Shown here: piece by piece, positions 3,679 to 47,300 of the stretch | How the letters are laid out: the number at the start of each line of letters is the position of its first letter | Numbering within the stretch: the stretch's first letter is position 1 | From: an uncultured Gemmatimonadota bacterium | GTDB taxonomy: Bacteria; JAAXHH01 | NCBI GenBank assembly: GCA_951812955.1 | Contig: OX638340.1 | Span: forward strand, 3,232,001 to 3,296,000 | Length of the DNA stretch: 64,000 bases | Direction: 5' to 3' | Program-made: the position numbers and the translations under genes | The notes under the pieces: generated by a model | The model's database searches: none | The model's input: only the letters and a program-made list of their open reading frames with translations | Told to the model about the DNA's origin: nothing

Positions 3679-4988
3679 ACCTCATTGCGTCCTATTTCAG
3701 GTTCGAAGAGCGCAATACGAACTGGCGGGCCGAAGTCACCGGCGGCCTGACCACCTTCATGACGATGGCCTACATCGTCGCCGTAAACCCCGGCATCCTG
3801 TCTGAAGCGATGGGCCAGTCGTTGTTCGGGGAACTATTGTTCGCCACGTGCGTGTCCGCCGCGTTCGGCACGTTGCTGATGGCGCTGCTTGCGAACTATC
3901 CCTTTGCCCTGGCGCCCGGCATGGGACTCAACGCATTCTTCACCTACACCATCGTGTTGGGCATGGGCGTGGACTGGCGTATCGCCCTCGCCGTGGTACT
4001 CGCATCGGGTATTCTGTTTCTTCTGCTCACGTTTCTCCGGGTGCGGGAAGCGATAATCACAGCGGTTCCGGAACCGCTGAAGCGTGCGACCGCGGCCGGC
4101 ATCGGACTGTTCATCGCGTTCATCGGGCTCAAGAACGCCGGCGTCATCGTGGACGATCCGGCCACGCTGGTCAGCCTGGGCGACGTAAGGTCCTGGCCGG
4201 TTGGTCTGACCCTCGCGGGCATGTTGGCCATGGGCGTAATGCTGGCACGGGGAATGCGTGGTTCGATCCTGCTGGGTGTGGCCGGGGTCGCATTCCTGGC
4301 CATGGTATTCGGCGTGACGCCGTGGCCGGCGGGCGTAGCGAGCATGCCCACCTGGCCGTCGACCCTGTTCGGCGAGGCGGTCGTCAACCTGCCACTTGTC
4401 CTGGACTCGGCGATGCTGCACCTCGTGTTCGCCTTCCTGTTCGTGGACCTGTTCGATACCATGGGGACACTGGTCGGACTCTCGGAACGATCGGGTTTCC
4501 TGGACCGGCAGGGCCGGCTTCCCCGGGCTAACCGCGCGCTGCTCGCAGACTCCGTCGGTACGGTTTTCGGCAGTGTGATGGGCTCAGCGACCGTGACCAC
4601 ATACATAGAGAGCGCCACCGGCATTTCTTCCGGGGCGCGGACTGGATTCGCCAGCCTGGTGGTCGCCTTGCTGTTCCTCGGCACGTTGTTCCTGACCCCA
4701 CTGGTCGAATCGATACCAGTATTCGCCACCGCGCCCGCGCTGATTGTCACGGGTGTATTGATGATGGCTTCGGCGGCGCGGGTGAACTGGAGCGACGCGT
4801 CGGAAGCGGTACCCGTTTTTCTTACGTTGATTTCGATTCCGTTGACGTTTAGTATTGCCGACGGCCTGGCCGTCGGTTTCGTCGCCTATCCGGTCATCAA
4901 AAGACTGAGCGGCAGGGGCGGGGAAGTACATCCGCTCGTCGACGTCCTGGCGCTTGTCTTTATCGCACGATACGTTTTCATGACGTGA
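3675..4988 (+). CDS. NCS2-family purine permease (AzgA/GhxP-like adenine/guanine/hypoxanthine transporter)
   Basis: ATG at 3675 overlaps the tsaD stop (ATGA). MNLIASYF...GGLTTFMTMAYIVAVNP is the AzgA-family N-terminal signature, with multiple TM segments. The ORF-track 5' extension from 3381 overlaps tsaD and is rejected. Confidence 0.8.
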   Translation: MNLIASYFRFEERNTNWRAEVTGGLTTFMTMAYIVAVNPGILSEAMGQSLFGELLFATCVSAAFGTLLMALLANYPFALAPGMGLNAFFTYTIVLGMGVDWRIALAVVLASGILFLLLTFLRVREAIITAVPEPLKRATAAGIGLFIAFIGLKNAGVIVDDPATLVSLGDVRSWPVGLTLAGMLAMGVMLARGMRGSILLGVAGVAFLAMVFGVTPWPAGVASMPTWPSTLFGEAVVNLPLVLDSAMLHLVFAFLFVDLFDTMGTLVGLSERSGFLDRQGRLPRANRALLADSVGTVFGSVMGSATVTTYIESATGISSGARTGFASLVVALLFLGTLFLTPLVESIPVFATAPALIVTGVLMMASAARVNWSDASEAVPVFLTLISIPLTFSIADGLAVGFVAYPVIKRLSGRGGEVHPLVDVLALVFIARYVFMT

Positions 4989-10977: not shown

Positions 10978-11021
10978 TTTCGTGCAATCGAGTATGGACT
11001 TTCGTGCAATCGAGTATGGGC
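10978..11021. repeat. 22-bp direct repeat x2 (tttcgtgcaatcgagtatgg[ag]c) upstream of promoter
   Basis: Two perfect-adjacent copies read directly, 60 bp upstream of the -35 box; a candidate regulator binding site. Confidence 0.5.
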
Positions 11022-11080
11022 TTGTTCCGGGCGGGCATGTTCCGGTGCGCCGAACGGTTCCCTGAAGGTCCAATATTGGC

Positions 11081-11109
11081 TTGACACCAAGTGCGGCTTC
11101 CCGTAAGAT
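11081..11109 (+). promoter_or_regulatory. sigma70-like promoter TTGACA-N17-TAAGAT
   Basis: Consensus -35 and a good -10 with 17-bp spacing, 25 bp upstream of the AAGGAG RBS and the ATG at 11135. Confidence 0.5.
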
Positions 11110-11134
11110 GTGTCCATCTTCAAGGAGACTGAAA

Positions 11135-14100
11135 ATGCCACATAGGTTGCGGTTTATTCTGGCGTTCCTGTGCCTGCTGGCCATGCCTGCGGCAGCGTTC
11201 GCCCAGGGGGATTACTTCGGGCGGAACAAGGTCCAATACCGCGACTTCAAGTGGGAAATCATCTCCACGCCCCACTTCGAAATCTACTTCTACCAGGGAG
11301 AGGAAGAGGCGGCCTACGATGCCGCCCGGATGGCGGAACGGTCCTATAACCGTCTGAGCCGCATACTGCAGCACAGGTTTAGCGACAAGATCCCAATCAT
11401 CCTGTACGCCTCCCATACCGATTTCCAGCAGACCAACGTCCTGCCGGGCTTCATCAGCGAGGGCACCGGCGGCGTGACGGAATTCAACAAGAACCGCATA
11501 CTGCTGCCCTTCACGGGATCGTACGCGGAACTGGAGCACGTACTCACCCACGAACTCGTTCACGCCTTCCAGGGTGACGCGATCTACGGCGCCGGTCCCG
11601 GCGTCTCCATCCTGAATCCCATGGCCTTCATCGCCCCGCTGTGGTTCATGGAGGGCATGGCGGAGTACCTGTCCCTTGGCCGAATCGACGCCTATACCCA
11701 CATGTGGCTGCGCGACGCGGCGCTGCAGGGATACCTCCCAGCGTCCATCCCCGCCATGGACTACAGTTTCGGCGTCTACCGGTTCGGCCAGGCGCTCTTC
11801 GCCTACATCGGCGAACGGTACGGAGATCGCAAGATCGGCGAGATTCTCCGCAAGACCGGCCGCCTGCGAAACGTGAACGAAGCCTTCCGTTCGTCCATCG
11901 GTAAGGATATCGAGAAGCTTTCCGACGAATGGAACGAGCACGTGCGCCAGACCTACCTGCCACAGATCAAGGATTACGAAAAGCCGCAGGCCTTTGCCCG
12001 GCAACTGACCGACGTCAGGGAATCCCGGGCGGGTATACATCTCGCCCCGGCGATTTCGCCGCGTGGAGACAAGCTGGTTTTCATCTCAAATAAAAGCCTG
12101 TACAACGATATCTACCTGGCCTCCGCCATCAACGGCGAGGTGATCTCCAAGCTGGTCGAGGGCGAACGCTCGGCCGATTTCGAGTCCCTCCGGTTTTTCT
12201 CCACGTCCATTTCCTGGTCGCCCGATGAGCAGTACATCGCCTTTCCGGCCAAGGTGGGGGCGCGGGACGCCTTGTATGTCATGGACGTGAGGAAGAGGAA
12301 GGTCGTCCGGCGCATCAAGGTCGATCTCGACGGCGCCACGTCGCCGAGTTGGTCGCCCGACGGCAGCCAGCTGGTCTTCGTCGGCCTGCAGGGCGGACAG
12401 TCGGACCTGTACGTGATAGACGCCACGGGAGGGAACCTGCGCGCCCTGACCCAGGACCGGTACACCGATCGTGATCCCGTGTGGTCGCCCGACGGCAGCC
12501 AGATCGCTTTTTCCACGGACCGGGGCGACGTGACCAATTTCCGGACGCTCACTTTCGGTTATCAGCAATTGGCGGTATACGACCTGGCCACGGGGGAAGT
12601 CGATAAGATCCCCGACCAGATCGGAAAAAGCATCTCGCCTCAATGGTCCGCCGATGGCGAGAAGATCGCCTTCATATCGGACCGCACCGGTATTTCCAAT
12701 ATTTTTATTCGGGACATGAAATCAGGCGAGACCTACCAGATTACCAACATCCTCACCGGGGTGACCAACGTTACGGCCGCGGGTCCCGCCATAAGCTGGG
12801 CGCAGAAGGCTGACCGGCTGGTTTTTTCTTCCCTGTCCTGGGGCGGATTCGACCTGTTCTCCATCAGCGATCCGGTGTCGCTGATGAAAGAGCCCTACGA
12901 TCACGCAAAATCGGCGACGCCAGGCGCCTCTCCCGATGCAGCGCAACTGGCCCCTCCGCTCAGGACCGAACCTTCGGAAGAAACCGCCGACGGCGAGGAC
13001 GGCGATGGTACATCGCTGGACCCGGAAGTGGCAATCGACGGTATCGAGTCCGCGTCACCGGACTCAGACGCCGACTCCGACACGAGTCAGTCGATTTCAG
13101 CGCAGGACGACGAGAAGGTCACCGAGGAGAAGGTTACCGAGGAGAAGGATACCGAGGAGAAGGTCACCGAGGGGAAGGTTACCACGATCCAGACCGTACT
13201 TACGGAATCTCCCGATACGACGTCCACCACGAATGAAACCACACCGCGGGAGGAGCCGGAGGAGACAGGAAGTTCCGATCTTCTGCAGCAGCCGGAGTTT
13301 CCTTTCGGTCCCGTCACCAGAGGAATCGGGCCGGGTGGCGAATTGCCGGATACTACCGCATGGATCGACGGCACCTTCACGAAGAAGAAATACTCCCCCG
13401 ACTTCGGCCTCGACTATATCGGCGGGAATGCGGGTTACGCCACGAACGTCGGTCTGGTGGGAAGTTCCCTTCTTTCCTTCAGCGATATCCTGAATAACCA
13501 CAAGATTCTGGTGGGAGCCAACGTATTCGGTTCCCTGACGGACGCGAACCTGCTGCTTCAGTACACCAACCTGACTCGGCGCGTCAACTGGAGCGTGGCG
13601 GCTTTTCAGTACAGCTATGATCTGTTCTACAACTACCAGAGCCCCATCCTTACCCAGGTTACGACCCAGATCAATCGCGGCGTGCATCTCTTCGTAAGCC
13701 GGCCTTTCAGCAAGTTCAGCCGCTTGGAACTGGGTATTCAGGGGGTGCACAGGTCCCGTGAGCTGGTGGATGTGAGTTTCAATTACTTCGGCATCCGCCG
13801 GAACCGGCGCGGGAGCCTGGGCAGCGTGAATTTCGTGCAGCCCACCGCCGCCCTGGTCACCGATCACACGCTCTATGGCGTTACCGGACCGATCGCCGGC
13901 GCCCGGGGCCGCATCGAAATAACCCCGACTTTCGGCGAACTCCAGTACACGCGCGCCTTCATCGATTACCGAACGTACATCAACGTAATGCAGCGGTACG
14001 CCTTTGCCTTTCGCCTGTTCGGACTGGCCAGCGAGGGGCGCGACCAGGAACTCTTTCCCTTTGGCGGGCCCTATGATTTTCGTGGCGCCAACTACTGGTC

Positions 14101-14602
14101 CGTCTGGGGGAGCAAGGTCGCGATGGTCAACGCGGAGTTCCGTTTTCCTTTAGTCGATGTGCTGGCCATGGGGTGGCCGCTGCCGCTGGTCTTCCAACAG
14201 ATCCGGGGCTCGTTGTTCATCGACGCAGGCAGTGCTTGGGACCAGAACACAAGCGCCGTGCAGGCCAATCAGTATGCGGGCTATCCCAATGTGGGAGACT
14301 TCGTCGACGGGTCGCTGATGCGGGACAACGGGCTGGGGCCCGGCATGATGGAAGAACTGTCGGGCAGTCCGGTCGCCGTGGCCTACGGCATCGGTGCGCG
14401 GGCGCGTGTGGGTTTCCTGATACTGAAGTTTGATATAGCCCGTCAGTTCGACCTCGGTAAACGGCCCTCCTGGTACAACAACGAGAACCTTCCCACTGTG
14501 CCCAGGGGACTGGAGTCCGAGTTTCCAGGCACGCGTTCGTACCGTCTGAGGAATGCGCTGAACGATACCCAGTTCTTCTTCACGATCGGCGCCGATTTCT
14601 AG
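11135..14602 (+). CDS. multidomain outer-membrane protein: N-terminal HExxH metallopeptidase-like domain + TolB/PD40-like beta-propeller repeats + acidic repeat linker + C-terminal Omp85/surface-antigen-like beta-barrel
   Basis: Signal peptide MPHRLRFILAFLCLLAMPAAAFAQ. HELVHAFQ...MEGMAEY (HExxH+E). Repeated SPxxDGxxLxF propeller motifs (SPRGDKLVFIS, SWSPDGSQLVF, VWSPDGSQIAF, QWSADGEKIAF). EEKVTEEK repeats. The C-terminus ...FFFTIGADF is typical of outer-membrane barrels. The ORF-track start at 11081 is the TTG inside the -35 box and is rejected. Confidence 0.7.
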   Translation: MPHRLRFILAFLCLLAMPAAAFAQGDYFGRNKVQYRDFKWEIISTPHFEIYFYQGEEEAAYDAARMAERSYNRLSRILQHRFSDKIPIILYASHTDFQQTNVLPGFISEGTGGVTEFNKNRILLPFTGSYAELEHVLTHELVHAFQGDAIYGAGPGVSILNPMAFIAPLWFMEGMAEYLSLGRIDAYTHMWLRDAALQGYLPASIPAMDYSFGVYRFGQALFAYIGERYGDRKIGEILRKTGRLRNVNEAFRSSIGKDIEKLSDEWNEHVRQTYLPQIKDYEKPQAFARQLTDVRESRAGIHLAPAISPRGDKLVFISNKSLYNDIYLASAINGEVISKLVEGERSADFESLRFFSTSISWSPDEQYIAFPAKVGARDALYVMDVRKRKVVRRIKVDLDGATSPSWSPDGSQLVFVGLQGGQSDLYVIDATGGNLRALTQDRYTDRDPVWSPDGSQIAFSTDRGDVTNFRTLTFGYQQLAVYDLATGEVDKIPDQIGKSISPQWSADGEKIAFISDRTGISNIFIRDMKSGETYQITNILTGVTNVTAAGPAISWAQKADRLVFSSLSWGGFDLFSISDPVSLMKEPYDHAKSATPGASPDAAQLAPPLRTEPSEETADGEDGDGTSLDPEVAIDGIESASPDSDADSDTSQSISAQDDEKVTEEKVTEEKDTEEKVTEGKVTTIQTVLTESPDTTSTTNETTPREEPEETGSSDLLQQPEFPFGPVTRGIGPGGELPDTTAWIDGTFTKKKYSPDFGLDYIGGNAGYATNVGLVGSSLLSFSDILNNHKILVGANVFGSLTDANLLLQYTNLTRRVNWSVAAFQYSYDLFYNYQSPILTQVTTQINRGVHLFVSRPFSKFSRLELGIQGVHRSRELVDVSFNYFGIRRNRRGSLGSVNFVQPTAALVTDHTLYGVTGPIAGARGRIEITPTFGELQYTRAFIDYRTYINVMQRYAFAFRLFGLASEGRDQELFPFGGPYDFRGANYWSVWGSKVAMVNAEFRFPLVDVLAMGWPLPLVFQQIRGSLFIDAGSAWDQNTSAVQANQYAGYPNVGDFVDGSLMRDNGLGPGMMEELSGSPVAVAYGIGARARVGFLILKFDIARQFDLGKRPSWYNNENLPTVPRGLESEFPGTRSYRLRNALNDTQFFFTIGADF
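13112..13186 (+). repeat. 15-bp tandem repeat x5 (gagaaggtcaccgag) in-frame, encoding (EKVTE)n linker
   Basis: Read directly inside the 11135..14602 CDS. Confidence 0.7.
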
Positions 14603-21074: not shown

Positions 21075-21728
21075 ATGAAACGATGGAGCAACACGGCTTC
21101 GATGCTGGCGCTCTGTGTTCTGGTCGCCGCACCCGTGTGGATGGGTGCGTGCTGCGCCGTATCCCGGGGACCTTCCGCGGAGGAACTGGCCGCCATGGAA
21201 GCCGAGCGGCAGCGGGCCGTAGAGGATTCCCTCAGGGCGGTGCGCGCTGAAGAAGAAGCCCGGCTCGCGGCTGAAGAAGAGGCCCGGCGGATGGCAGAAG
21301 AGGAAGCTCGGCTCGCCGCGGAGGAAGAAGCCCGGCTCGCTGCCGAAGAGGAAGCCCGGCTCGCTGCCGAGGCGGCAGCCCTGCACGCAGAGAGGATGTC
21401 TCTGTCGACCATCTACTTCAATTACGACCGTTCCAATGTCCGGGAAGACCAGCGACCGGCTCTGGATGAGAACGCCCAAAAGTTGCGGGAGTACCAGCCC
21501 GAAGACATGGTGGTTGTCGAGGGCCACGCTGATGAGCGGGGTACGATCGAATACAACCTGGCGCTGGGCGAACGGCGCGCCCAGGCGGTCAAGACCTATC
21601 TCGTGGATGCGGGCGTGGCGGACAGCCGCATCGAAACCGTCAGTTTCGGTGAAGAGAAACCGGCGGTCATGGGCAGCGACGAAAGCGCCTGGTCGCAGAA
21701 CCGCCGAGTGGAGCTTATGCGGAAGTAA
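21075..21728 (+). CDS. pal: peptidoglycan-associated lipoprotein Pal (OmpA-C domain)
   Basis: GGAAGGAG RBS; lipoprotein signal (...WMGAC); OmpA-like C-terminal domain (IYFNYDRSNV...LEGHADERGTIEYNLALGERRAQAVKTYL...NRRVEL). Confidence 0.85.
   Translation: MKRWSNTASMLALCVLVAAPVWMGACCAVSRGPSAEELAAMEAERQRAVEDSLRAVRAEEEARLAAEEEARRMAEEEARLAAEEEARLAAEEEARLAAEAAALHAERMSLSTIYFNYDRSNVREDQRPALDENAQKLREYQPEDMVVVEGHADERGTIEYNLALGERRAQAVKTYLVDAGVADSRIETVSFGEEKPAVMGSDESAWSQNRRVELMRK
21249..21368 (+). repeat. 24-bp tandem repeat x5 in-frame inside pal (encodes EEEARLAA repeats)
   Basis: Read directly. Confidence 0.7.
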
Positions 21729-26526: not shown

Positions 26527-26626
26527 TACGGTGACGCCCCTGACGGATTATATGGTGAAGGCCCTACCTGGTTGTGGTTGTACGGTGGCGCCCTTGCCTG
26601 GGTTGTGCGGTGACGCCATTGCCCCG
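26527..26626. repeat. three direct repeats of ~21 bp (t[ag]cggtg[ag]cgcc..tg.c.gg), two in tandem, in the larB upstream region
   Basis: Read directly between the larB start (26459) and the dipeptidase stop (26645); a candidate operator. Confidence 0.4.
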
Positions 26627-28262: not shown

Positions 28263-29273
28263 ATGGCTCGATTTACCATTCTCGCGCCCGGCAATCCCGA
28301 TAATCCCGGTCCCAATCAGTATATCAGGGACGAACTGGAAACGATTGGCGCCGAGCTCAGGATACGTCCCTTCAGCACACTAGAGGAAATGCTGGAAGAG
28401 GCCCGGGACGTGGACGGCTTTACCCAGGGCGGCCTGACCTATAATCGGGAAACCGTGGAGCAACTGCCCGACCGCATACGCGTTGTGGGCGCGGGCGGGA
28501 TCGGCGTGGACTTCATCGACGTGGAAGCGGCCACGGAACGGGGGATCATCGTATACAACATCCAGGGCGTTTTCGAACGGGAGGTCGCCCAGCACGCCAT
28601 GATGCTGCTGCTTGCGTGCGCCCGCCGGCTGATGCCCATCAACCGGTCCATGATCGAAGGCACCCCCGTCAGCCGCGGCACCATTCAACCTGTATACGAG
28701 CAGACCCTCGGCCTCGTGTCCTTCGGGAATATCGGCCGGGCCATGGCGAAGATCGCCACCGGTTTCGATCTGCGTATCATTGCCTGCGATCCCTTCGTCA
28801 GCCAGGCCGCCGCCGATCCCTGGGGCGTGACGATGGTGGACCAGGAAACGCTGTTCAAGGAATCCGACTTCGTTTCGTGCCATGTACCCCTGACGCCCAG
28901 TACCCACCACATCATCGGGGAGCGGGATTTCCGGAACATGAAACCCTCCGCCTACTTCATCAACACGGGACGCGGCAAGGTCGTGGACGAAAAGGCGCTC
29001 ATCGAGGCGTTGCAGGAAGGGCGGCTCGCCGGCGCAGGGCTGGACGTGCAGGAGCAGGAGCCCCCGGCTCCGGACAACCCGCTGCGCAAGATGGATAACG
29101 TGGTCCTCACACCCCATTACGCTTCCGCGTCGGTTCGGGGTGGGATCGAGCGCGCAAGAAAAGCAGGCCAGCAACTGGTCACCATTCTCAGTGGCCGCTG
29201 GCCCGACGACGGCCTCGTAAATCCCGCCGTAAAGAAACTCGCCGCCGAAAAATGGGGCATGCCCGCAGAGTGA
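28263..29273 (+). CDS. D-isomer-specific 2-hydroxyacid dehydrogenase (NAD-binding)
   Basis: GxGxxG-type NAD site (FGNIGRAMAK) and the catalytic R/E/H arrangement of the family (…TGRG…, …TPHYAS…). Confidence 0.85.
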   Translation: MARFTILAPGNPDNPGPNQYIRDELETIGAELRIRPFSTLEEMLEEARDVDGFTQGGLTYNRETVEQLPDRIRVVGAGGIGVDFIDVEAATERGIIVYNIQGVFEREVAQHAMMLLLACARRLMPINRSMIEGTPVSRGTIQPVYEQTLGLVSFGNIGRAMAKIATGFDLRIIACDPFVSQAAADPWGVTMVDQETLFKESDFVSCHVPLTPSTHHIIGERDFRNMKPSAYFINTGRGKVVDEKALIEALQEGRLAGAGLDVQEQEPPAPDNPLRKMDNVVLTPHYASASVRGGIERARKAGQQLVTILSGRWPDDGLVNPAVKKLAAEKWGMPAE

Positions 29274-29303: not shown

Positions 29304-30008
29304 ATGTTCTACGATACCGTGATTTTTGATGCGGCGGGTACCCTCGTCGGCCGGGATTCTCCGGATTTCTTCGAGGAGTTCTTCGTTGTCGCGGCCGGGG
29401 AGCTCGGGACCGAGGTGACACTGAACCAGGTGAAGGCCGCGCTTTCGAAATCCATGGAGGAACCGCGGTTCCGGCTTCGCGAAGGACGCATGAGCACGCC
29501 GGAGCAGACGCGCCGGTACTTTCTGGATCTCTACGCCCACGTGTTGAACGGAGCGGGCGTTGAGGGTGACCTGGCGCAGGGGTTACAGGCGTACTACGAC
29601 CGGTTCCAGGACGGCAGGTACCTGGACGTGTACAGCGACGTCCGGCCCACGCTGGAAGCGCTGAAGACCGGTGGCATGCGCCTCGGGGTGCTGTCGAACT
29701 GGTCGGAACACCTCGCGCTGGTCCTGGAGCGGCTCGACCTGGACCGGTACTTCTCCTTCCTCGTCGTTTCCGCCGAAGTCGGATGTGAAAAGCCCGACGA
29801 GGAGATCTTCCGCCTGGCCCTGGATCGTGCGGAAACCCCGATCGACCGCATCCTGTACATCGGAGACTACCCGGAGGAGGACATCCTGCCCGCCGAGCGT
29901 ATCGGGCTGGATGCCCTCCTCATCGATCGGTACGACAAGTACGGGCGATATCGCCTGCCCACCATCAACACATTGACGGATGTCCCCGGACTGATTGGCC
30001 TCTCATGA
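29304..30008 (+). CDS. HAD-superfamily hydrolase
   Basis: Motif I VIFDAAGTL; motif III/IV …YIGDYPEEDI…. Confidence 0.7.
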   Translation: MFYDTVIFDAAGTLVGRDSPDFFEEFFVVAAGELGTEVTLNQVKAALSKSMEEPRFRLREGRMSTPEQTRRYFLDLYAHVLNGAGVEGDLAQGLQAYYDRFQDGRYLDVYSDVRPTLEALKTGGMRLGVLSNWSEHLALVLERLDLDRYFSFLVVSAEVGCEKPDEEIFRLALDRAETPIDRILYIGDYPEEDILPAERIGLDALLIDRYDKYGRYRLPTINTLTDVPGLIGLS

Positions 30009-30019
30009 GGGAAGCGTCC

Positions 30020-30135
30020 TGAACGAGTGCGTCAAGAACGAAGGTGTGTCATGAACGAAGGCGAACCATGAACGAAGACGTGGCATGAACGAGTGCAAAC
30101 CATGAACGTAGGCGAACCATGAACATAGGCGAACC
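30020..30135. repeat. 17-bp tandem repeat x ~7 (catgaacgaaggcgaac) ending with the unit that contains the ATG of the next gene
   Basis: Each unit carries ATG; the last unit (catgacagagaaaccg) is the true 5' end of the 30136 CDS. Read directly. Confidence 0.8.
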
Positions 30136-31377
30136 ATGACAGAGAAACCGATCCGCGTAGGCGTAGTGGGCGTGGGCCGCGGGAAGAGTTTCGCGCAGAC
30201 CGCGTCCGGCGCCGTGGGCATGCAGCTCGTCGCGCTGTGCGACACCTGGGAGGAGCGGTTGCAGCAGTTGGCCGGGGAACTCTCCGTCGCCGCGTACACC
30301 GATTACGACGCATTCCTCACCCACGACATGGACGCCGTCGTCCTGGCCAACTACTTCCACCAACACGCGCCGTTCGCCATCAAGGCTCTGCGGGCGGGGC
30401 GGCACGTCATGAGCGAGACGGCCTCCAACGCCACCCTGGCCGAGGGGGTGGCCCTGTGCCGGACCGTTGAGGAGACCGGCCGGATCTACATGTTGGCCGA
30501 GAACTATCCGTACACGGTCTTCAATCAGGAGATGCACCGGTTGTACGGCGAGGGGGAGATCGGCGAGGTAACCTATGCCGAGGGGGAGTACAACCACCCC
30601 ATGGCCCGGGACGACAGCCTCCGCCTGTCACCGGGATTCGACCACTGGCGGGCGTGGATTCCCTCCACCTATTACTGCACCCACGCCCTGGCTCCGCTGG
30701 TATACATCACCAATACGCGGCCGGTTGGCGTGAACGCCCTTGCCATCGCGCGGCCCGAGCGCACCCTCACGCTCAGGAGAGGAGACCCGGGGTCTGTCAT
30801 CCTCTGCCGCATGGACAATGGCGCGGTGTTTCGGATCTTCGGACTCAGTATGCCGGGCCACAGCAACTGGTACCGCGTGCACGGCGAACGGGGCGCCATG
30901 GAGATCACGCGGGGACCGGGATACTTCGGACCGGGAGAGGTGCGGGTGTGGCATGAGCCGTGGCACCTGGAACCCGGCCAGGAAGCGGAACGGGTATACC
31001 GGCCGGACTGGCCCGAACACGGCGATCTCGCCCGCGAGGCTGGGCACGGGGGTGGCGACTTCTGGACCAGTTTCCATTTTGCCCGGGCCATCCGTTCGGG
31101 CGAACAGCCCTTCCTGGACGTCTACCGCGGCGTAGCCATGTCGTCGGTGGGCATCCTGGCCTGGAAAAGCGCGCTGGAAGACGGGCGCCCCTTCGAAGTG
31201 CCCGATTTCAGGGACGAGGACGACCGTAAATCCTGGGAGAACGACCACTGGTCGCCCTGGCCCGGACATGCCGGACCGGGACAGCCGCCTCCCAGCATAC
31301 TCGGCCGTCGCGACCCGGCTCCGGAACATATCCCATACGCCCGTCGCATATGGAAGGACATGGGTTACGAGGGGTAA
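30136..31377 (+). CDS. Gfo/Idh/MocA-family NAD(P)-dependent oxidoreductase
   Basis: N-terminal Rossmann IRVGVVGVGRG; C-terminal Gfo/Idh/MocA alpha/beta domain. Confidence 0.85.
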   Translation: MTEKPIRVGVVGVGRGKSFAQTASGAVGMQLVALCDTWEERLQQLAGELSVAAYTDYDAFLTHDMDAVVLANYFHQHAPFAIKALRAGRHVMSETASNATLAEGVALCRTVEETGRIYMLAENYPYTVFNQEMHRLYGEGEIGEVTYAEGEYNHPMARDDSLRLSPGFDHWRAWIPSTYYCTHALAPLVYITNTRPVGVNALAIARPERTLTLRRGDPGSVILCRMDNGAVFRIFGLSMPGHSNWYRVHGERGAMEITRGPGYFGPGEVRVWHEPWHLEPGQEAERVYRPDWPEHGDLAREAGHGGGDFWTSFHFARAIRSGEQPFLDVYRGVAMSSVGILAWKSALEDGRPFEVPDFRDEDDRKSWENDHWSPWPGHAGPGQPPPSILGRRDPAPEHIPYARRIWKDMGYEG

Positions 31378-31435: not shown

Positions 31436-31510
31436 GACCCCATCGTCTAGCCTGGCCAAGGACACCGCCCTTTCACGGCGGCAACACGGGTTCAAATCCC
31501 GTTGGGGTCA
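31436..31510 (+). tRNA. tRNA-Glu (anticodon TTC)
   Basis: 7-bp acceptor stem GACCCCA/TGGGGTC; anticodon loop CTTTCAC; T-loop GGTTCAAATCC; near-identical to E. coli tRNA-Glu outside the D-loop; CCA not encoded. Confidence 0.9.
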
Positions 31511-31532
31511 TATGGAATAACCGGAAATGGCA

Positions 31533-31566
31533 AAGGGGATTGCGTGTGTGCGCAATCCCCTTTTTG
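31533..31566. terminator. bidirectional rho-independent terminator (aaaggggattgcg-tgtgtg-cgcaatcccctttttg)
   Basis: 12-bp stem plus T-tract; A-tract on the other side. It separates tRNA-Glu (+) and the convergent SBP gene (-). Confidence 0.65.
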
Positions 31567-31608
31567 CTTTCATGCCGTCCGGTTTGCTTTCTGTGCCGTC
31601 CGGGGGCG

Positions 31609-40909: not shown

Positions 40910-40955
40910 TGCTTTCAATCGGTTGTCACGCGTGCTTTCAATCGGTTGTCACGCG
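40910..40955. repeat. 23-bp direct repeat x2 (tgctttcaatcggttgtcacgcg) in divergent intergenic region
   Basis: Two perfect adjacent copies between ROK (-) and the 41109 gene (+). Confidence 0.5.
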
Positions 40956-45761: not shown

Positions 45762-46238
45762 ATGAACGCCAAGCACCAGCGCCAGGGAACCATACGATCA
45801 CTTATCGAGCGGGGGCACTTCCACACGCACAAGGAGGTGATCGCAGCGTTGCGCACGGAAGGGATCGACATCAACCAGGGCACACTGTCCAAGGATTTCA
45901 AGGAACTGCATGTAATCAAGATCCGCCTCGCCGACGGTCAGTACAAGTACGTGCTGCCGCGCTATTACTCGGTAGAGACGCAGGACGAACTGGTCGAACG
46001 GGAGATCCGGGATTTCGTCGTCAGCGCGGACGACGCGATGAATCAGGTCGTCCTGCACACCTCCGCCGGTCACGCGTCGGGGGTGTGCGAGGCGATCGAC
46101 CGGGCGGAATGGCCCGAGATCATAGGCAGCGTCGCGGGTGAGAATACGATTCTCCTGGTCACCAAATCGACCGATCAGGCCGGGAAGACGCTTAAACGCA
46201 TCAAGAGTATCATGAAGGAAAAGAGGGAAGGCACATGA
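45762..46238 (+). CDS. argR: arginine repressor ArgR
   Basis: Winged-helix N-domain (RQGTIRSLIERGHFHTHKEVIAALRTEGIDINQGTLSKD) and arginine-binding C-domain. Confidence 0.9.
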   Translation: MNAKHQRQGTIRSLIERGHFHTHKEVIAALRTEGIDINQGTLSKDFKELHVIKIRLADGQYKYVLPRYYSVETQDELVEREIRDFVVSADDAMNQVVLHTSAGHASGVCEAIDRAEWPEIIGSVAGENTILLVTKSTDQAGKTLKRIKSIMKEKREGT

Positions 46239-47254
46239 TTAAACTGGGTATCATCGGCGCGACGGGATATACCGGAATGGAATTGTACCGGTTGGCGTCG
46301 CGTCATCCCGGCATCGAGGTCGTTTTCGCCACGTCGGAACAGTATACCGGGCAAAACCTCGGAGAGGTCTTTCCCCGGATCGATCCGGACCGGGACACTA
46401 CGCTGAGATCCCTGGATGAAATTGCCGCCGTACCCGCGGACGTGGTCTGTTTCTGCACGCCGGACGGGGTGGCCATGGACCGGGTCGGTGCCTTCCTGGA
46501 GCGAGGCGTGCGCGTCGTGGACGTCAGTTCCGATTTCCGGTTCGACGACCCCGATGTATACACGACCTGGTACAGCCGTCCGCACACGGCGCCGGAACTG
46601 CTCGATTCGGCGGTCTACGGGATTCCCGAATTGAACCGGGACCGCATACGGACAGCCGATCTCGTTGGCAATCCGGGCTGCTATCCCACGGGCGTGATCC
46701 TCGGACTGGCCCCGCTGCTCGAAGCGGACGCCATCGACGCCTGTCAGGTCATCGTGGACGCCAAGTCGGGCGTCAGCGGCGCCGGACGGGGCCTGAAGCT
46801 GCGCAATTTATACGTGGAAGTGAACGATAGCATCACGCCGTACAACATCGGCCACACCCACCGGCACGTAGGTGAAATCGAACAGGAATTGTCCAGGTTC
46901 TCCGACGAGCAGCCCTATGTCGTCTTTTCGCCCCACCTGACGCCCATGAGCCGGGGCATTCTGGCAACCACATACGTGCGGGTGAAGAACGGCGCGGCCA
47001 ACGGCGATCTGGCGGACCTGTACGAGCAGCGTTACAGAGGGGAACCCTTTATCAGGCTGTCCCGGTCCGGCTATCCCGAGACACGGTTCGTGACCTGGAC
47101 GAATTACTGCGATCTTCGGATCGACCGGGTGGACGGATCGGACCTGGCCATCGTCACTTCCGCCGTCGACAACCTGGTCAAAGGCGCGGCCGGCCAGGCG
47201 CTCCAGAACGTGAACGTCATGTTCGGCCGGGACGAGACGACCGGGCTGATCTAA
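46235..47254 (+). CDS. argC: N-acetyl-gamma-glutamyl-phosphate reductase
   Basis: IIGATGYTG Rossmann; catalytic GNPGCYPT motif. Confidence 0.9.
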   Translation: MIKLGIIGATGYTGMELYRLASRHPGIEVVFATSEQYTGQNLGEVFPRIDPDRDTTLRSLDEIAAVPADVVCFCTPDGVAMDRVGAFLERGVRVVDVSSDFRFDDPDVYTTWYSRPHTAPELLDSAVYGIPELNRDRIRTADLVGNPGCYPTGVILGLAPLLEADAIDACQVIVDAKSGVSGAGRGLKLRNLYVEVNDSITPYNIGHTHRHVGEIEQELSRFSDEQPYVVFSPHLTPMSRGILATTYVRVKNGAANGDLADLYEQRYRGEPFIRLSRSGYPETRFVTWTNYCDLRIDRVDGSDLAIVTSAVDNLVKGAAGQALQNVNVMFGRDETTGLI

Positions 47255-47300
47255 GGAACGACCGGGCTGATCCAGGAACGACGGGCTGATCTATGGAACG
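47234..47300. repeat. ~21-bp tandem repeat x3 (g[ag]aacgaccgggctgatct[ac][ag]) = triplicated 3' terminus of argC including stop codon
   Basis: Copy 1 is the end of argC (…ACGACCGGGCTGATCTAA); copies 2-3 follow immediately, trailed by degenerate copies. Confidence 0.8.

What the first reader, a model, noticed from the sequence alone, without database searches (positions are those of the whole stretch)
30020..30135. Seven tandem 17-bp units, each containing ATG, form a ladder leading into the start codon of the Gfo/Idh/MocA gene
The unit catgaacgaaggcgaac is repeated with minor variation, and the final unit is the actual 5' end of the CDS (catgacagag…). This mirrors the 3'-end phenomenon in the arg operon but sits at a gene start. 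Because 17 is not a multiple of 3, the upstream ATGs are out of frame, and the one in-frame copy hits a TGA. The array could provide multiple decoy start codons for translational regulation or could serve as a regulator binding array. It also spawns an antisense shadow ORF (30003..30299) with repetitive peptide content.
Basis: seen in the sequence. Interest (0 to 1): 0.5.

Follow-up and report, generated by a model that had tools for sequence, protein, structure and literature searches.

The report
Start/stop-overlap mini-ORF ladder between two genes
A short DNA unit holding a start codon overlapped by a stop codon has been copied head-to-tail between two genes of one operon in a sponge-associated bacterium, giving a chain of tiny reading frames that can pass ribosomes from the first gene to the second; it resembles the repeat units used to type tuberculosis strains, but the unit is much shorter.

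Summary
The 17-nt tandem array is real and non-random. Five full units carry ATG, and two degenerate 5' units carry CTG or AAG instead. [quoted passage not shown] Every unit is a start/stop-overlap module (NTGA) of length 3n+2, so each start opens a 5-11-codon mini-ORF whose TGA overlaps the next start. This gives an unbroken chain: HAD stop, seven mini-ORFs, then the Gfo/Idh/MocA ATG.

The same junction in 21 related genomes, mostly sponge- or coral-associated, holds 0 to about 8 such units. A complete chain is present in 15 of 19 array-bearing loci, against 2.7 expected from shuffles. The TGA 16 nt upstream of the gene start is the most conserved part of the spacer. Two assemblies with identical flanking genes differ by exactly one unit, so this is a VNTR.

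My best reading is a slippage-born duplication of the gene's own translation-initiation region. It is tolerated because each copy closes itself and hands ribosomes on by termination-reinitiation. The closest known analogue is the mycobacterial MIRU. I found no evidence for a regulator-binding array, an RNA structure or a dedicated regulatory role. I rate it a new variant of a known kind, of moderate interest.

The parts
28263..29273 (+). First gene of the presumed operon: D-isomer-specific 2-hydroxyacid dehydrogenase
   Evidence: Pfam 2-Hacid_dh_C, E = 2.8e-61. It lies 30 nt upstream of the HAD gene on the same strand.
29304..30008 (+). HAD-superfamily hydrolase gene. Its stop codon TGA (30006-30008) is overlapped by the first ATG of the ladder.
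   Evidence: Pfam HAD_2, E = 1.7e-18. The C-terminus ...LTDVPGLIGLS* is conserved in relatives.
30005..30022 (+). Rung 0: ATG overlapping the HAD stop (ATGA). Mini-ORF MREAS*, in a 14-nt proto-unit.
   Evidence: The homologous TGAGGGA..NTGA unit is found next to the HAD stop in most relatives.
30019..30054 (+). Rung 1: two degenerate units (15 + 17 nt), with CTG in place of ATG at 30019 and AAG in place of ATG at 30034. The 11-codon frame LNECVKNEGVS* ends on a TGA overlapping the ATG at 30051.
   Evidence: The combined length of 32 nt is 3n+2, so the chain is kept.
30051..30071 (+). Rung 2: ATG...TGA, MNEGEP*. The stop overlaps the next ATG.
30068..30088 (+). Rung 3: MNEDVA*
30085..30105 (+). 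Rung 4: MNECKP*. This is the only upstream ATG in frame with Gfo.
30102..30122 (+). Rung 5: MNVGEP*
30119..30139 (+). Rung 6: MNIGEP*. Its TGA (30137-30139) overlaps the Gfo ATG (30136-30138). A TGA 16 nt before the gene start (here 30120-30122, overlapping this rung's ATG) is kept in 16 of 17 array-bearing relatives.
30136..31377 (+). Gfo/Idh/MocA-family oxidoreductase gene. The start at 30136 is confirmed by homologues that align from residue 1.
   Evidence: Pfam GFO_IDH_MocA, E = 6.1e-15. tblastn matches cover residues 1-413 in many relatives. Its SD is weak (anti-SD duplex -2.8 kcal/mol).

Best explanation
The array is a variable-number tandem duplication of the HAD-Gfo intercistronic junction itself: stop codon, SD-like purine stretch, start codon and the first 2-3 codons of Gfo. 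It most likely arose by replication slippage between the similar C(A/G)TGA(A/G) motifs at the HAD stop and the Gfo start.

The unit carries NTGA and is 3n+2 nt long (14 or 17 nt). Every copy is therefore a self-closing mini-ORF whose stop overlaps the next start by 4 nt. On the polycistronic mRNA, a ribosome ending HAD at UGA 30006-30008 can reinitiate at the overlapping AUG. It can then repeat termination-reinitiation at each rung until it reaches the Gfo AUG at 30136. A ribosome that enters at any rung is funnelled to the same place. Added or lost units thus leave Gfo translation and its coupling to HAD essentially intact. That explains why this kind of expansion is tolerated and why it turns over quickly between strains.

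Shown: the repeat, the complete NTGA chain, its presence and variability across 19 array-bearing loci, the conserved TGA, the strain-level unit indel, the lack of RNA structure, and the weak SD.

Inferred: co-transcription of the genes, actual translation of the rungs, reinitiation at each overlap, and the slippage origin.
For: Repeat and non-randomness.

Chain of seven mini-ORFs from the HAD stop to the Gfo ATG.

Uniqueness: this is the only ladder of 3 or more hops in the 64-kb window, and it has 8.

Relatives: a complete NTGA chain occurs in 15 of 19 loci with a spacer of at least 27 nt. Spacer shuffles give 2.7 expected. If the first hop may lie up to 15 nt after a TAA stop, the count is 17 of 19 against 4.1 expected.

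Spacing: 50 of 70 adjacent TGA-TGA spacings are 3n+2, in five length classes (8, 11, 14, 17, 20).

Last unit: TGA at -16..-14 relative to the Gfo ATG is kept in 16/17, 17/17 and 17/17 loci. These are the best-conserved spacer columns, while the base before it varies A/G/C.

Phylogeny: the outgroup L019 and L003/L015 have a plain 9-11-nt junction; L082 and L009 have two units; the window's lineage has 6-8.

VNTR: L002 and L081 differ by one 17-nt unit. Their flanks show 0 mismatches in 2,439 nt downstream and 3 in 1,068 nt upstream.

Unit origin: the unit's first 8 nt equal the first 8 nt of the Gfo CDS in L001/L002.

Gfo SD: weak in the window, -2.8 kcal/mol against -4.9 to -12.5 for 11 other genes.

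Other signals: no promoter or terminator in the spacer, no inverted repeats, fold z = +1.09, no Rfam family.

Literature: coupling by termination-reinitiation collapses at about 20 nt of intergenic distance, and the last 15 nt of an upstream ORF are enough for it (PMC10666635). MIRUs carry an ORF coupled at -4 nt to the downstream gene (PMC12548453).
Against: No expression data exist for this uncultured organism.

Rung 1 in the window starts with CTG, a poor initiator. With only ATG/GTG/TTG as starts, the strict chain holds in just 8 of 19 loci.

Seven serial reinitiations, each below 100% efficiency, would pass few ribosomes.

Any tandem copy of a 3n+2 unit containing NTGA makes a ladder automatically, so the chain in young arrays needs no selection. 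In my decay simulation the chain survives 51% of the time at 10% random change and 33% at 20%. The excess (15 of 19) therefore supports constraint only moderately, and the loci are phylogenetically related.

The neighbouring junction (2-hydroxyacid dehydrogenase to HAD) also expands to 102-112 nt in L017 and L009 without any -4 overlap at the HAD ATG. Junction expansions can therefore be tolerated without a relay.
Confidence: 0.6

Rival explanations
1. Adaptive rheostat or contingency locus. The number of rungs sets the Gfo:HAD translation ratio, because each reinitiation loses ribosomes or each weak SD adds some. Slippage then gives the population heritable, reversible expression variants. 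This is the positive version of the first reader's translational-regulation idea.
For: Copy number changes on a strain time-scale and differs among all close relatives. Arrays persist across a clade whose Gfo genes differ by about 11-14% at the nucleotide level. The window, with the most ATG rungs, has the weakest Gfo SD.
Against: There is no ON/OFF logic, because adding or removing a 17-nt unit leaves the chain and the Gfo frame intact. Rung number shows no clear pattern with phylogeny or SD strength. Similar junction duplications occur elsewhere in these genomes without such architecture, which points to a general mutational process. No expression data exist.
Confidence: 0.15
2. Inert junk repeat. 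The rungs are essentially not translated, and Gfo is initiated only de novo at its own SD and ATG. The ladder is a geometric by-product of copying a 3n+2 unit that happens to contain ATGA.
For: The ladder follows automatically from the unit's geometry. ATGA at CDS starts is common in bacteria generally (PMC5850271). The rungs have weak SD-like pairing, -1.0 to -6.1 kcal/mol. The chain is fairly robust to random change. Other junctions expand without a relay.
Against: The TGA at -16 is the best-conserved spacer feature across 17 loci, while the rest of the unit diverges. Diverged, no longer repetitive spacers (L006, L012, L013, L005) still keep the chain through different spacings. Within the window's five full units, none of the 10 differences from the consensus falls in ATGAAC; by my own arithmetic on the sequences, the chance is about (11/17)^10 = 0.013. 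Gfo's own SD is weak in the window, which makes purely independent initiation less likely.
Confidence: 0.2
3. Binding array for a DNA- or RNA-binding regulator that recognises the repeated CATGAAC/GAAGG motif.
For: The motif is repeated up to 7 times, and the core C(A/G)TGA(A/G)(C/G) is conserved.
Against: The array lies inside an operon, about 1.9 kb from the likely promoter region, with no promoter-like site nearby. Unit length and number vary freely, from 0 to about 8 units of 8-20 nt. The motif occurs nowhere else in the window or in the other fetched loci. There is no dyad symmetry and no Rfam match. The conserved core is exactly a start/stop overlap. No regulator gene was identified among the neighbouring genes that I characterised.
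Confidence: 0.03
4. Assembly artefact, that is, a mis-assembled or spuriously expanded repeat.
For: Raw reads for the window could not be inspected. Short tandem repeats can collapse or expand in short-read assemblies, so the single-unit difference between L002 and L081 could in principle be technical.
Against: Arrays of the same type sit at the same junction in 18 further independent assemblies, 19 loci with the window. These include complete chromosome-level MAGs (OY/OZ records). At about 130 nt the array is shorter than a typical read.
Confidence: 0.02

Closest known systems
Mycobacterial interspersed repetitive units (MIRU-VNTR; Supply et al. 1997, as described in PMC12548453 and PMC3184786)
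   Same: Both are tandem repeats inside operons, between co-directional genes. Each unit contains a small ORF in the same orientation, whose ends overlap the stop and start of the flanking genes (-4 nt), so the insertion or expansion is compatible with polycistronic translation. Copy number varies among strains.
   Different: MIRU units are about 40-100 bp and occur at about 40-50 loci per genome. They show signs of mobility (target duplications, imperfect terminal repeats) and are confined to Mycobacterium. Here the units are 14-17 nt and derive from the local junction itself. They were found at one locus only, within the DNA I could search, and in an unrelated lineage (MAGs labelled Latescibacterota or Gemmatimonadota).
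Overlapping NTGA gene pairs translated by termination-reinitiation (Huber et al. 2019, 2023)
   Same: The start/stop geometry is the same 4-nt overlap at every rung and at both flanking genes. The distance dependence reported for coupling explains why a 127-nt gap would need bridging.
   Different: Known cases couple two real protein genes through one overlap. Here up to eight overlaps are chained through 5-11-codon frames that show no peptide conservation.
Short upstream ORFs that 'deliver' ribosomes, and the coupling leaders used in biotechnology (as described in review PMC12548453, section 11)
   Same: A short ORF with no protein function ends on the start codon of the gene of interest and hands the ribosome over.
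   Different: Those use a single leader ORF at the 5' end of a transcript. This is a multi-copy, copy-number-variable series between two genes.
Phase-variable simple-sequence contingency loci (own knowledge: Neisseria, Haemophilus)
   Same: Both are slippage-prone tandem repeats at a gene start, with strain-level copy-number variation.
   Different: Contingency repeats switch a gene on or off by changing the frame or the promoter spacing. Here unit gain or loss is frame-neutral by construction.
Minigenes in operons (axe-txe minigene, PMC8708949; lambda bar minigenes, own knowledge)
   Same: Both are very short ORFs within operon mRNAs that influence translation of neighbouring cistrons.
   Different: Those are single elements, not tandem or chained, and act mostly negatively (peptidyl-tRNA drop-off or interference).

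Membership tests
MIRU-VNTR | Lies in an intergenic region between co-directional genes of an operon | tested here: met
   The array lies between HAD (29304-30008, +) and Gfo (30136-31377, +). No promoter or terminator is predicted between them. The adjacency is conserved in 21 relatives.
MIRU-VNTR | Units contain small ORFs whose ends overlap the stop and start codons of the flanking genes | tested here: met
   ATGA at the HAD stop (30005-30008) and ATGA at the Gfo start (30136-39). All internal rungs overlap by 4 nt.
MIRU-VNTR | Copy number varies among strains | tested here: met
   L002 has 6 units and L081 has 7, with near-identical flanks. Across the clade the range is 0 to about 8 units.
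MIRU-VNTR | Unit of about 40-100 bp belonging to the MIRU sequence classes | tested here: not met
   Units are 14 and 17 nt. Sequence similarity to MIRUs could not be tested, because no mycobacterial sequences are available in these tools.
MIRU-VNTR | Dispersed at tens of loci per genome, with signs of mobility | tested here: inconclusive
   No other copy was found in the 64-kb window or in the 160 fetched loci outside this junction. The rest of the roughly 3.9-Mb genome could not be scanned. The unit is derived from the local gene start, which argues for local duplication rather than insertion.
NTGA-overlap translational coupling (termination-reinitiation) | Co-directional ORFs with a 4-nt start/stop overlap | tested here: met
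   There are eight consecutive overlaps in the window.
NTGA-overlap translational coupling (termination-reinitiation) | Translation of the downstream ORF depends on translation of the upstream ORF | not testable with these tools
   This needs reporter assays or ribosome profiling. The only indirect hint is the weak Gfo SD.
Phase-variable contingency repeat | A change in repeat number shifts the reading frame or promoter spacing and switches the gene on or off | tested here: not met
   Units lie outside the CDS. Gain or loss of a 3n+2 NTGA unit keeps the chain and the Gfo frame: L002 and L081 both retain complete chains.
Leader-peptide attenuator or riboswitch-type leader | Alternative RNA structures or a terminator coupled to uORF translation | tested here: not met
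   No inverted repeats. The folding energy is no better than shuffles, z = +1.09. No terminator-like site and no Rfam family.
Regulator-binding repeat array (iteron- or operator-like) | A fixed-length site, conserved across species and placed at a promoter or origin | tested here: not met
   The location is intra-operonic. Unit lengths are 8-20 nt, and the sequence outside NTGA is not conserved.

The most novel reading that the evidence does not exclude
The array is a naturally evolved multi-rung translational relay that also serves as an evolvable dial. Slippage adds or removes self-compatible NTGA rungs, each of which passes on only a fraction of ribosomes. Strains of this symbiont lineage would thereby tune the stoichiometry of two operon enzymes heritably and reversibly. 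Junction duplications of this kind would then be a general, so far undescribed mode of operon evolution in Latescibacterota-like genomes.
Probability: 0.15. Interest if true: 0.65.

Novelty: new variant of a known kind. Interest (0 to 1): 0.45.

Why it matters
If the rungs are translated, this is a natural series of constructs with 0 to 8 consecutive -4 overlaps between the same two genes. It offers a ready-made test of how processive bacterial termination-reinitiation is, and bears on whether post-termination ribosomes stay on the mRNA (70S versus 30S scanning, still debated according to PMC12548453). It also shows that MIRU-like architecture, meaning polycistron-compatible repeats with overlapping mini-ORFs, can arise locally from a gene's own initiation region in a phylum far from mycobacteria. 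Practically, the locus is a candidate strain-typing VNTR for an abundant uncultured sponge symbiont. It is also a warning for gene callers, since several plausible ATGs precede the true start.

Tried and rejected
- Known RNA families: the only Rfam hits in the window are two tRNAs, none in the array.
- RNA structure: no inverted repeats, and folding is no better than shuffles.
- Internal promoter or terminator: none predicted in 30008-30136.
- Dispersed element: the unit and the ladder geometry occur nowhere else in the window. In the 160 fetched loci, the degenerate two-unit pattern matches only at this junction.
- Exact-protein look-up of the Gfo product: not on record.
- Antisense ORF 30003..30299: no family hit. 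I treated it as a shadow ORF.
- N-terminal extension of Gfo through the repeat: impossible, because every upstream frame is closed by a TGA, and homologues align from residue 1.
- Strong claim of selection on the chain: softened after the decay simulation showed the chain survives 33-51% of the time at 10-20% random change, and after the neighbouring junction was seen to expand without a ladder.
- Literature: combining VNTR, intergenic and translational coupling returned nothing. I found no description of short-unit ladders; MIRUs are the only analogue found.
- Link between the Glu-rich mini-ORFs and the downstream tRNA-Glu: the tRNA is also present in relatives without arrays, so I dropped it.

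Full report
**Observation.** The region 30019-30139 is a genuine tandem array. TRF reports period 17 with 5.3 copies over 30050-30139. It also reports a higher-order 34-nt period over 30036-30139, and weaker rows back to 30021. The repeat finder lists five copies at exact 17-nt spacing. The unit, allowing up to 3 mismatches, occurs four times in the window, all in the array, against 0.09 expected.

Reading the sequence shows five full upstream units with ATG, at 30051, 30068, 30085, 30102 and 30119. Two degenerate 5' units have CTG (30019, 15-nt spacing) and AAG (30034) instead. The gene's own ATG is at 30136. So 'seven units, each with ATG' is only partly right.

**Surroundings.** The array fills the whole 127-nt gap between two co-directional genes. 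Upstream is a HAD-family hydrolase (29304-30008). Downstream is the Gfo/Idh/MocA oxidoreductase (30136-31377). A 2-hydroxyacid dehydrogenase gene lies 30 nt further upstream. No promoter-like or terminator-like site is predicted in the gap. There are no inverted repeats. The RNA folds no better than shuffles, with z = +1.09. No Rfam family matches. The Gfo start at 30136 is supported by homologues that align from residue 1.

**Anatomy.** Each unit contains NTGA and is 3n+2 nt long. Each start therefore opens a frame that ends, after 5-11 codons, on the TGA overlapping the next start.
- In the window the chain is: ATG 30005 (overlapping the HAD stop TGA 30006-30008), CTG 30019, ATG 30051, 30068, 30085, 30102, 30119, then ATG 30136 of Gfo.
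- The peptides (MREAS, LNECVKNEGVS, MNEGEP, MNEDVA, MNECKP, MNVGEP, MNIGEP) are not conserved as peptides.
- This is the only ladder of 3 or more hops in the 64-kb window, with 8 hops.
- SD-like pairing before the rungs and before Gfo is weak. It is -1.0 to -6.1 kcal/mol for the rungs and -2.8 for Gfo, against -4.9 to -12.5 for eleven other genes of the window. This assumes a canonical anti-SD, since the 16S gene is not in the window.

**Relatives.** Scans of genome and metagenome collections returned 21 loci that keep the HAD-Gfo pair. They share 80-97% amino-acid identity and are mostly sponge- or coral-associated MAGs labelled Latescibacterota, Gemmatimonadota or simply 'bacterium'.
- Spacer length ranges from 9 to 141 nt.
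- The outgroup L019 has a plain 11-nt junction, and L003/L015 have 9-10 nt. L082 and L009 have two TGA-bounded units. The window's lineage has the most.
- A complete chain of NTGA overlaps from the HAD stop to the Gfo ATG is present in 15 of 19 loci with a spacer of at least 27 nt, against 2.7 expected from spacer shuffles. It is present in 17 of 19 if the first hop may start up to 15 nt after a TAA stop, against 4.1 expected. With only ATG/GTG/TTG as starts, it is present in 8 of 19, against 2.4 expected.
- 50 of 70 adjacent TGA-TGA spacings are 3n+2. They fall in five length classes: 8, 11, 14, 17 and 20 nt.
- Anchoring on the Gfo ATG, with no reference to the repeat, the TGA at -16..-14 is kept in 16/17, 17/17 and 17/17 loci. 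These are the most conserved spacer columns. The preceding base varies (A5, G6, C5, plus one locus with GAG).
- Spacers that have decayed beyond recognisable repetition (L006, L012, L013, L005) still keep the chain, through other spacings.

**Turnover.** L002 and L081 show 0 mismatches in 2,439 nt downstream and 3 mismatches in 1,068 nt upstream. They differ by exactly one 17-nt unit. The window, L001 and L002 are 95.7-97.2% identical in the Gfo gene but have differently arranged arrays, including adjacent identical units in L002. The array therefore behaves as a VNTR.

**Origin.** In L001, L002 and L081 the gene starts ATGAACGA, which is the first 8 nt of the unit. The HAD-proximal 14-nt unit (TGAGGGA..C NTGA) has the size and layout of the simple junction seen in L003, L015 and L019. 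The array is thus a serial duplication of the junction, or of the translation-initiation region itself. I infer it was seeded by the similar C(A/G)TGA(A/G) motifs at the HAD stop and the Gfo start.

Other tandem duplications at gene junctions occur in these genomes, which points to a general mutational tendency:
- a 21-nt x3 copy of the last codons, stop and AAGGA of ORF 46235..47254 in the window;
- a 23-nt x3.4 copy of the end of the dehydrogenase gene in L017, and an expansion to 112 nt in L009;
- a 14-nt x3 TTGA array across the stop of the Gfo homologue in L039.

**Mechanism.** Published experiments show that coupling by termination-reinitiation is strongest at -4 overlaps. About 20 nt of intergenic distance almost abolishes it, and the last 15 nt of an upstream ORF suffice for it (PMC10666635; PMC6728339). 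A 127-nt gap would therefore uncouple Gfo from HAD unless it were bridged. The ladder bridges it with eight -4 overlaps.

My best reading has confidence 0.6. Slippage creates the copies. Copies are tolerated, and kept compatible by selection on TGA and on 3n+2 length, because each closes itself and hands ribosomes to the next start. The array preserves expression rather than regulating it.

**Limits.** The ladder geometry follows automatically from copying a 3n+2 unit that contains NTGA. In a random-change simulation the chain survives in 51% of trials at 10% change and 33% at 20%. The loci share ancestry. The neighbouring junction expands without a ladder, because HAD starts ATGT. One rung in the window relies on CTG. 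Evidence for selection is therefore moderate, and translation of the rungs is inferred, not shown.

**Comparison with known systems.** The closest known case is the mycobacterial MIRU. MIRUs are intercistronic repeats with an internal ORF coupled at -4 nt to the downstream gene, variable in copy number, and thought to be tolerated for that reason (PMC12548453; PMC3184786). The present array works like a MIRU but is not a member of that family. Its units are 14-17 nt rather than 40-100 bp. They are locally derived, were not found elsewhere, and occur in an unrelated lineage. It is also not a phase-variation switch, because unit changes are frame-neutral. It is not an attenuator, because there is no structure. 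It is not a plausible operator array. A full-text search combining VNTR, intergenic and translational coupling found nothing.

**Verdict.** This is a real, conserved yet hypervariable feature. I rate it a new variant of a known kind, with interest 0.45. The most novel reading not excluded is an adaptive copy-number dial for operon stoichiometry, with probability about 0.15.

Noticed in passing
window 31436-31510 (+); L001-L019 at about 4300-4375: A tRNA-Glu(UUC) gene lies 58 nt after the Gfo stop on the same strand, followed by a terminator-like hairpin (31532-31563). It sits in the same place in all 19 genome relatives, with or without an array. It may be co-transcribed with the operon.
   Followed up: partly
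window 47237-47300: A 21-nt x3 tandem copy of the last five codons, the TAA and AAGGA of ORF 46235..47254. It is a junction duplication of the stop/SD side rather than the start side.
   Followed up: partly
L017 2151-2228; L009 about 2100-2215: The neighbouring junction (2-hydroxyacid dehydrogenase to HAD) is usually 22-30 nt. It is expanded to 102 nt in L017 by a 23-nt x3.4 copy of the gene end (..PAE* plus 13 nt), and to 112 nt in L009. HAD starts ATGT, so no -4 ladder forms there.
   Followed up: partly
L039 4186-4235: In a Lake Baikal Latescibacterota MAG, a 14-nt x3 repeat (GAGGATTGAGGATC) spans the stop codon of the Gfo homologue and gives a TTGA ladder with 14-nt steps.
   Followed up: no
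window 40910-40955, 10978-11023, 31563-31603, 26576-26623: Further short tandem duplications (23 nt x2 perfect, 22 nt x2, 21 nt x2, 25 nt x1.9) lie in intergenic DNA of the same window. L005 has a 15-nt x7 array (4451-4555) and L006 a 22-nt x3 array (4428-4496) downstream of the tRNA-Glu gene. This lineage seems prone to 14-25-nt tandem duplications outside coding sequence.
   Followed up: no
window 13108-13183 and 21249-21388: In-frame coding repeats: 15 nt x5 inside the long ORF 11081..14602, and 24 nt x5.6 (EEEARLAA-like) inside ORF 21075..21728. They are unrelated to the junction arrays.
   Followed up: no
window 30136 versus relatives: The N-terminus of Gfo in the window (MTEKP, ATGACAGAGAAACCG) differs from that of its closest relatives (MNDQP, ATGAACGATCAGCCG), although the genes are 96-97% identical overall. 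The first codons next to the array evolve unusually fast.
   Followed up: no
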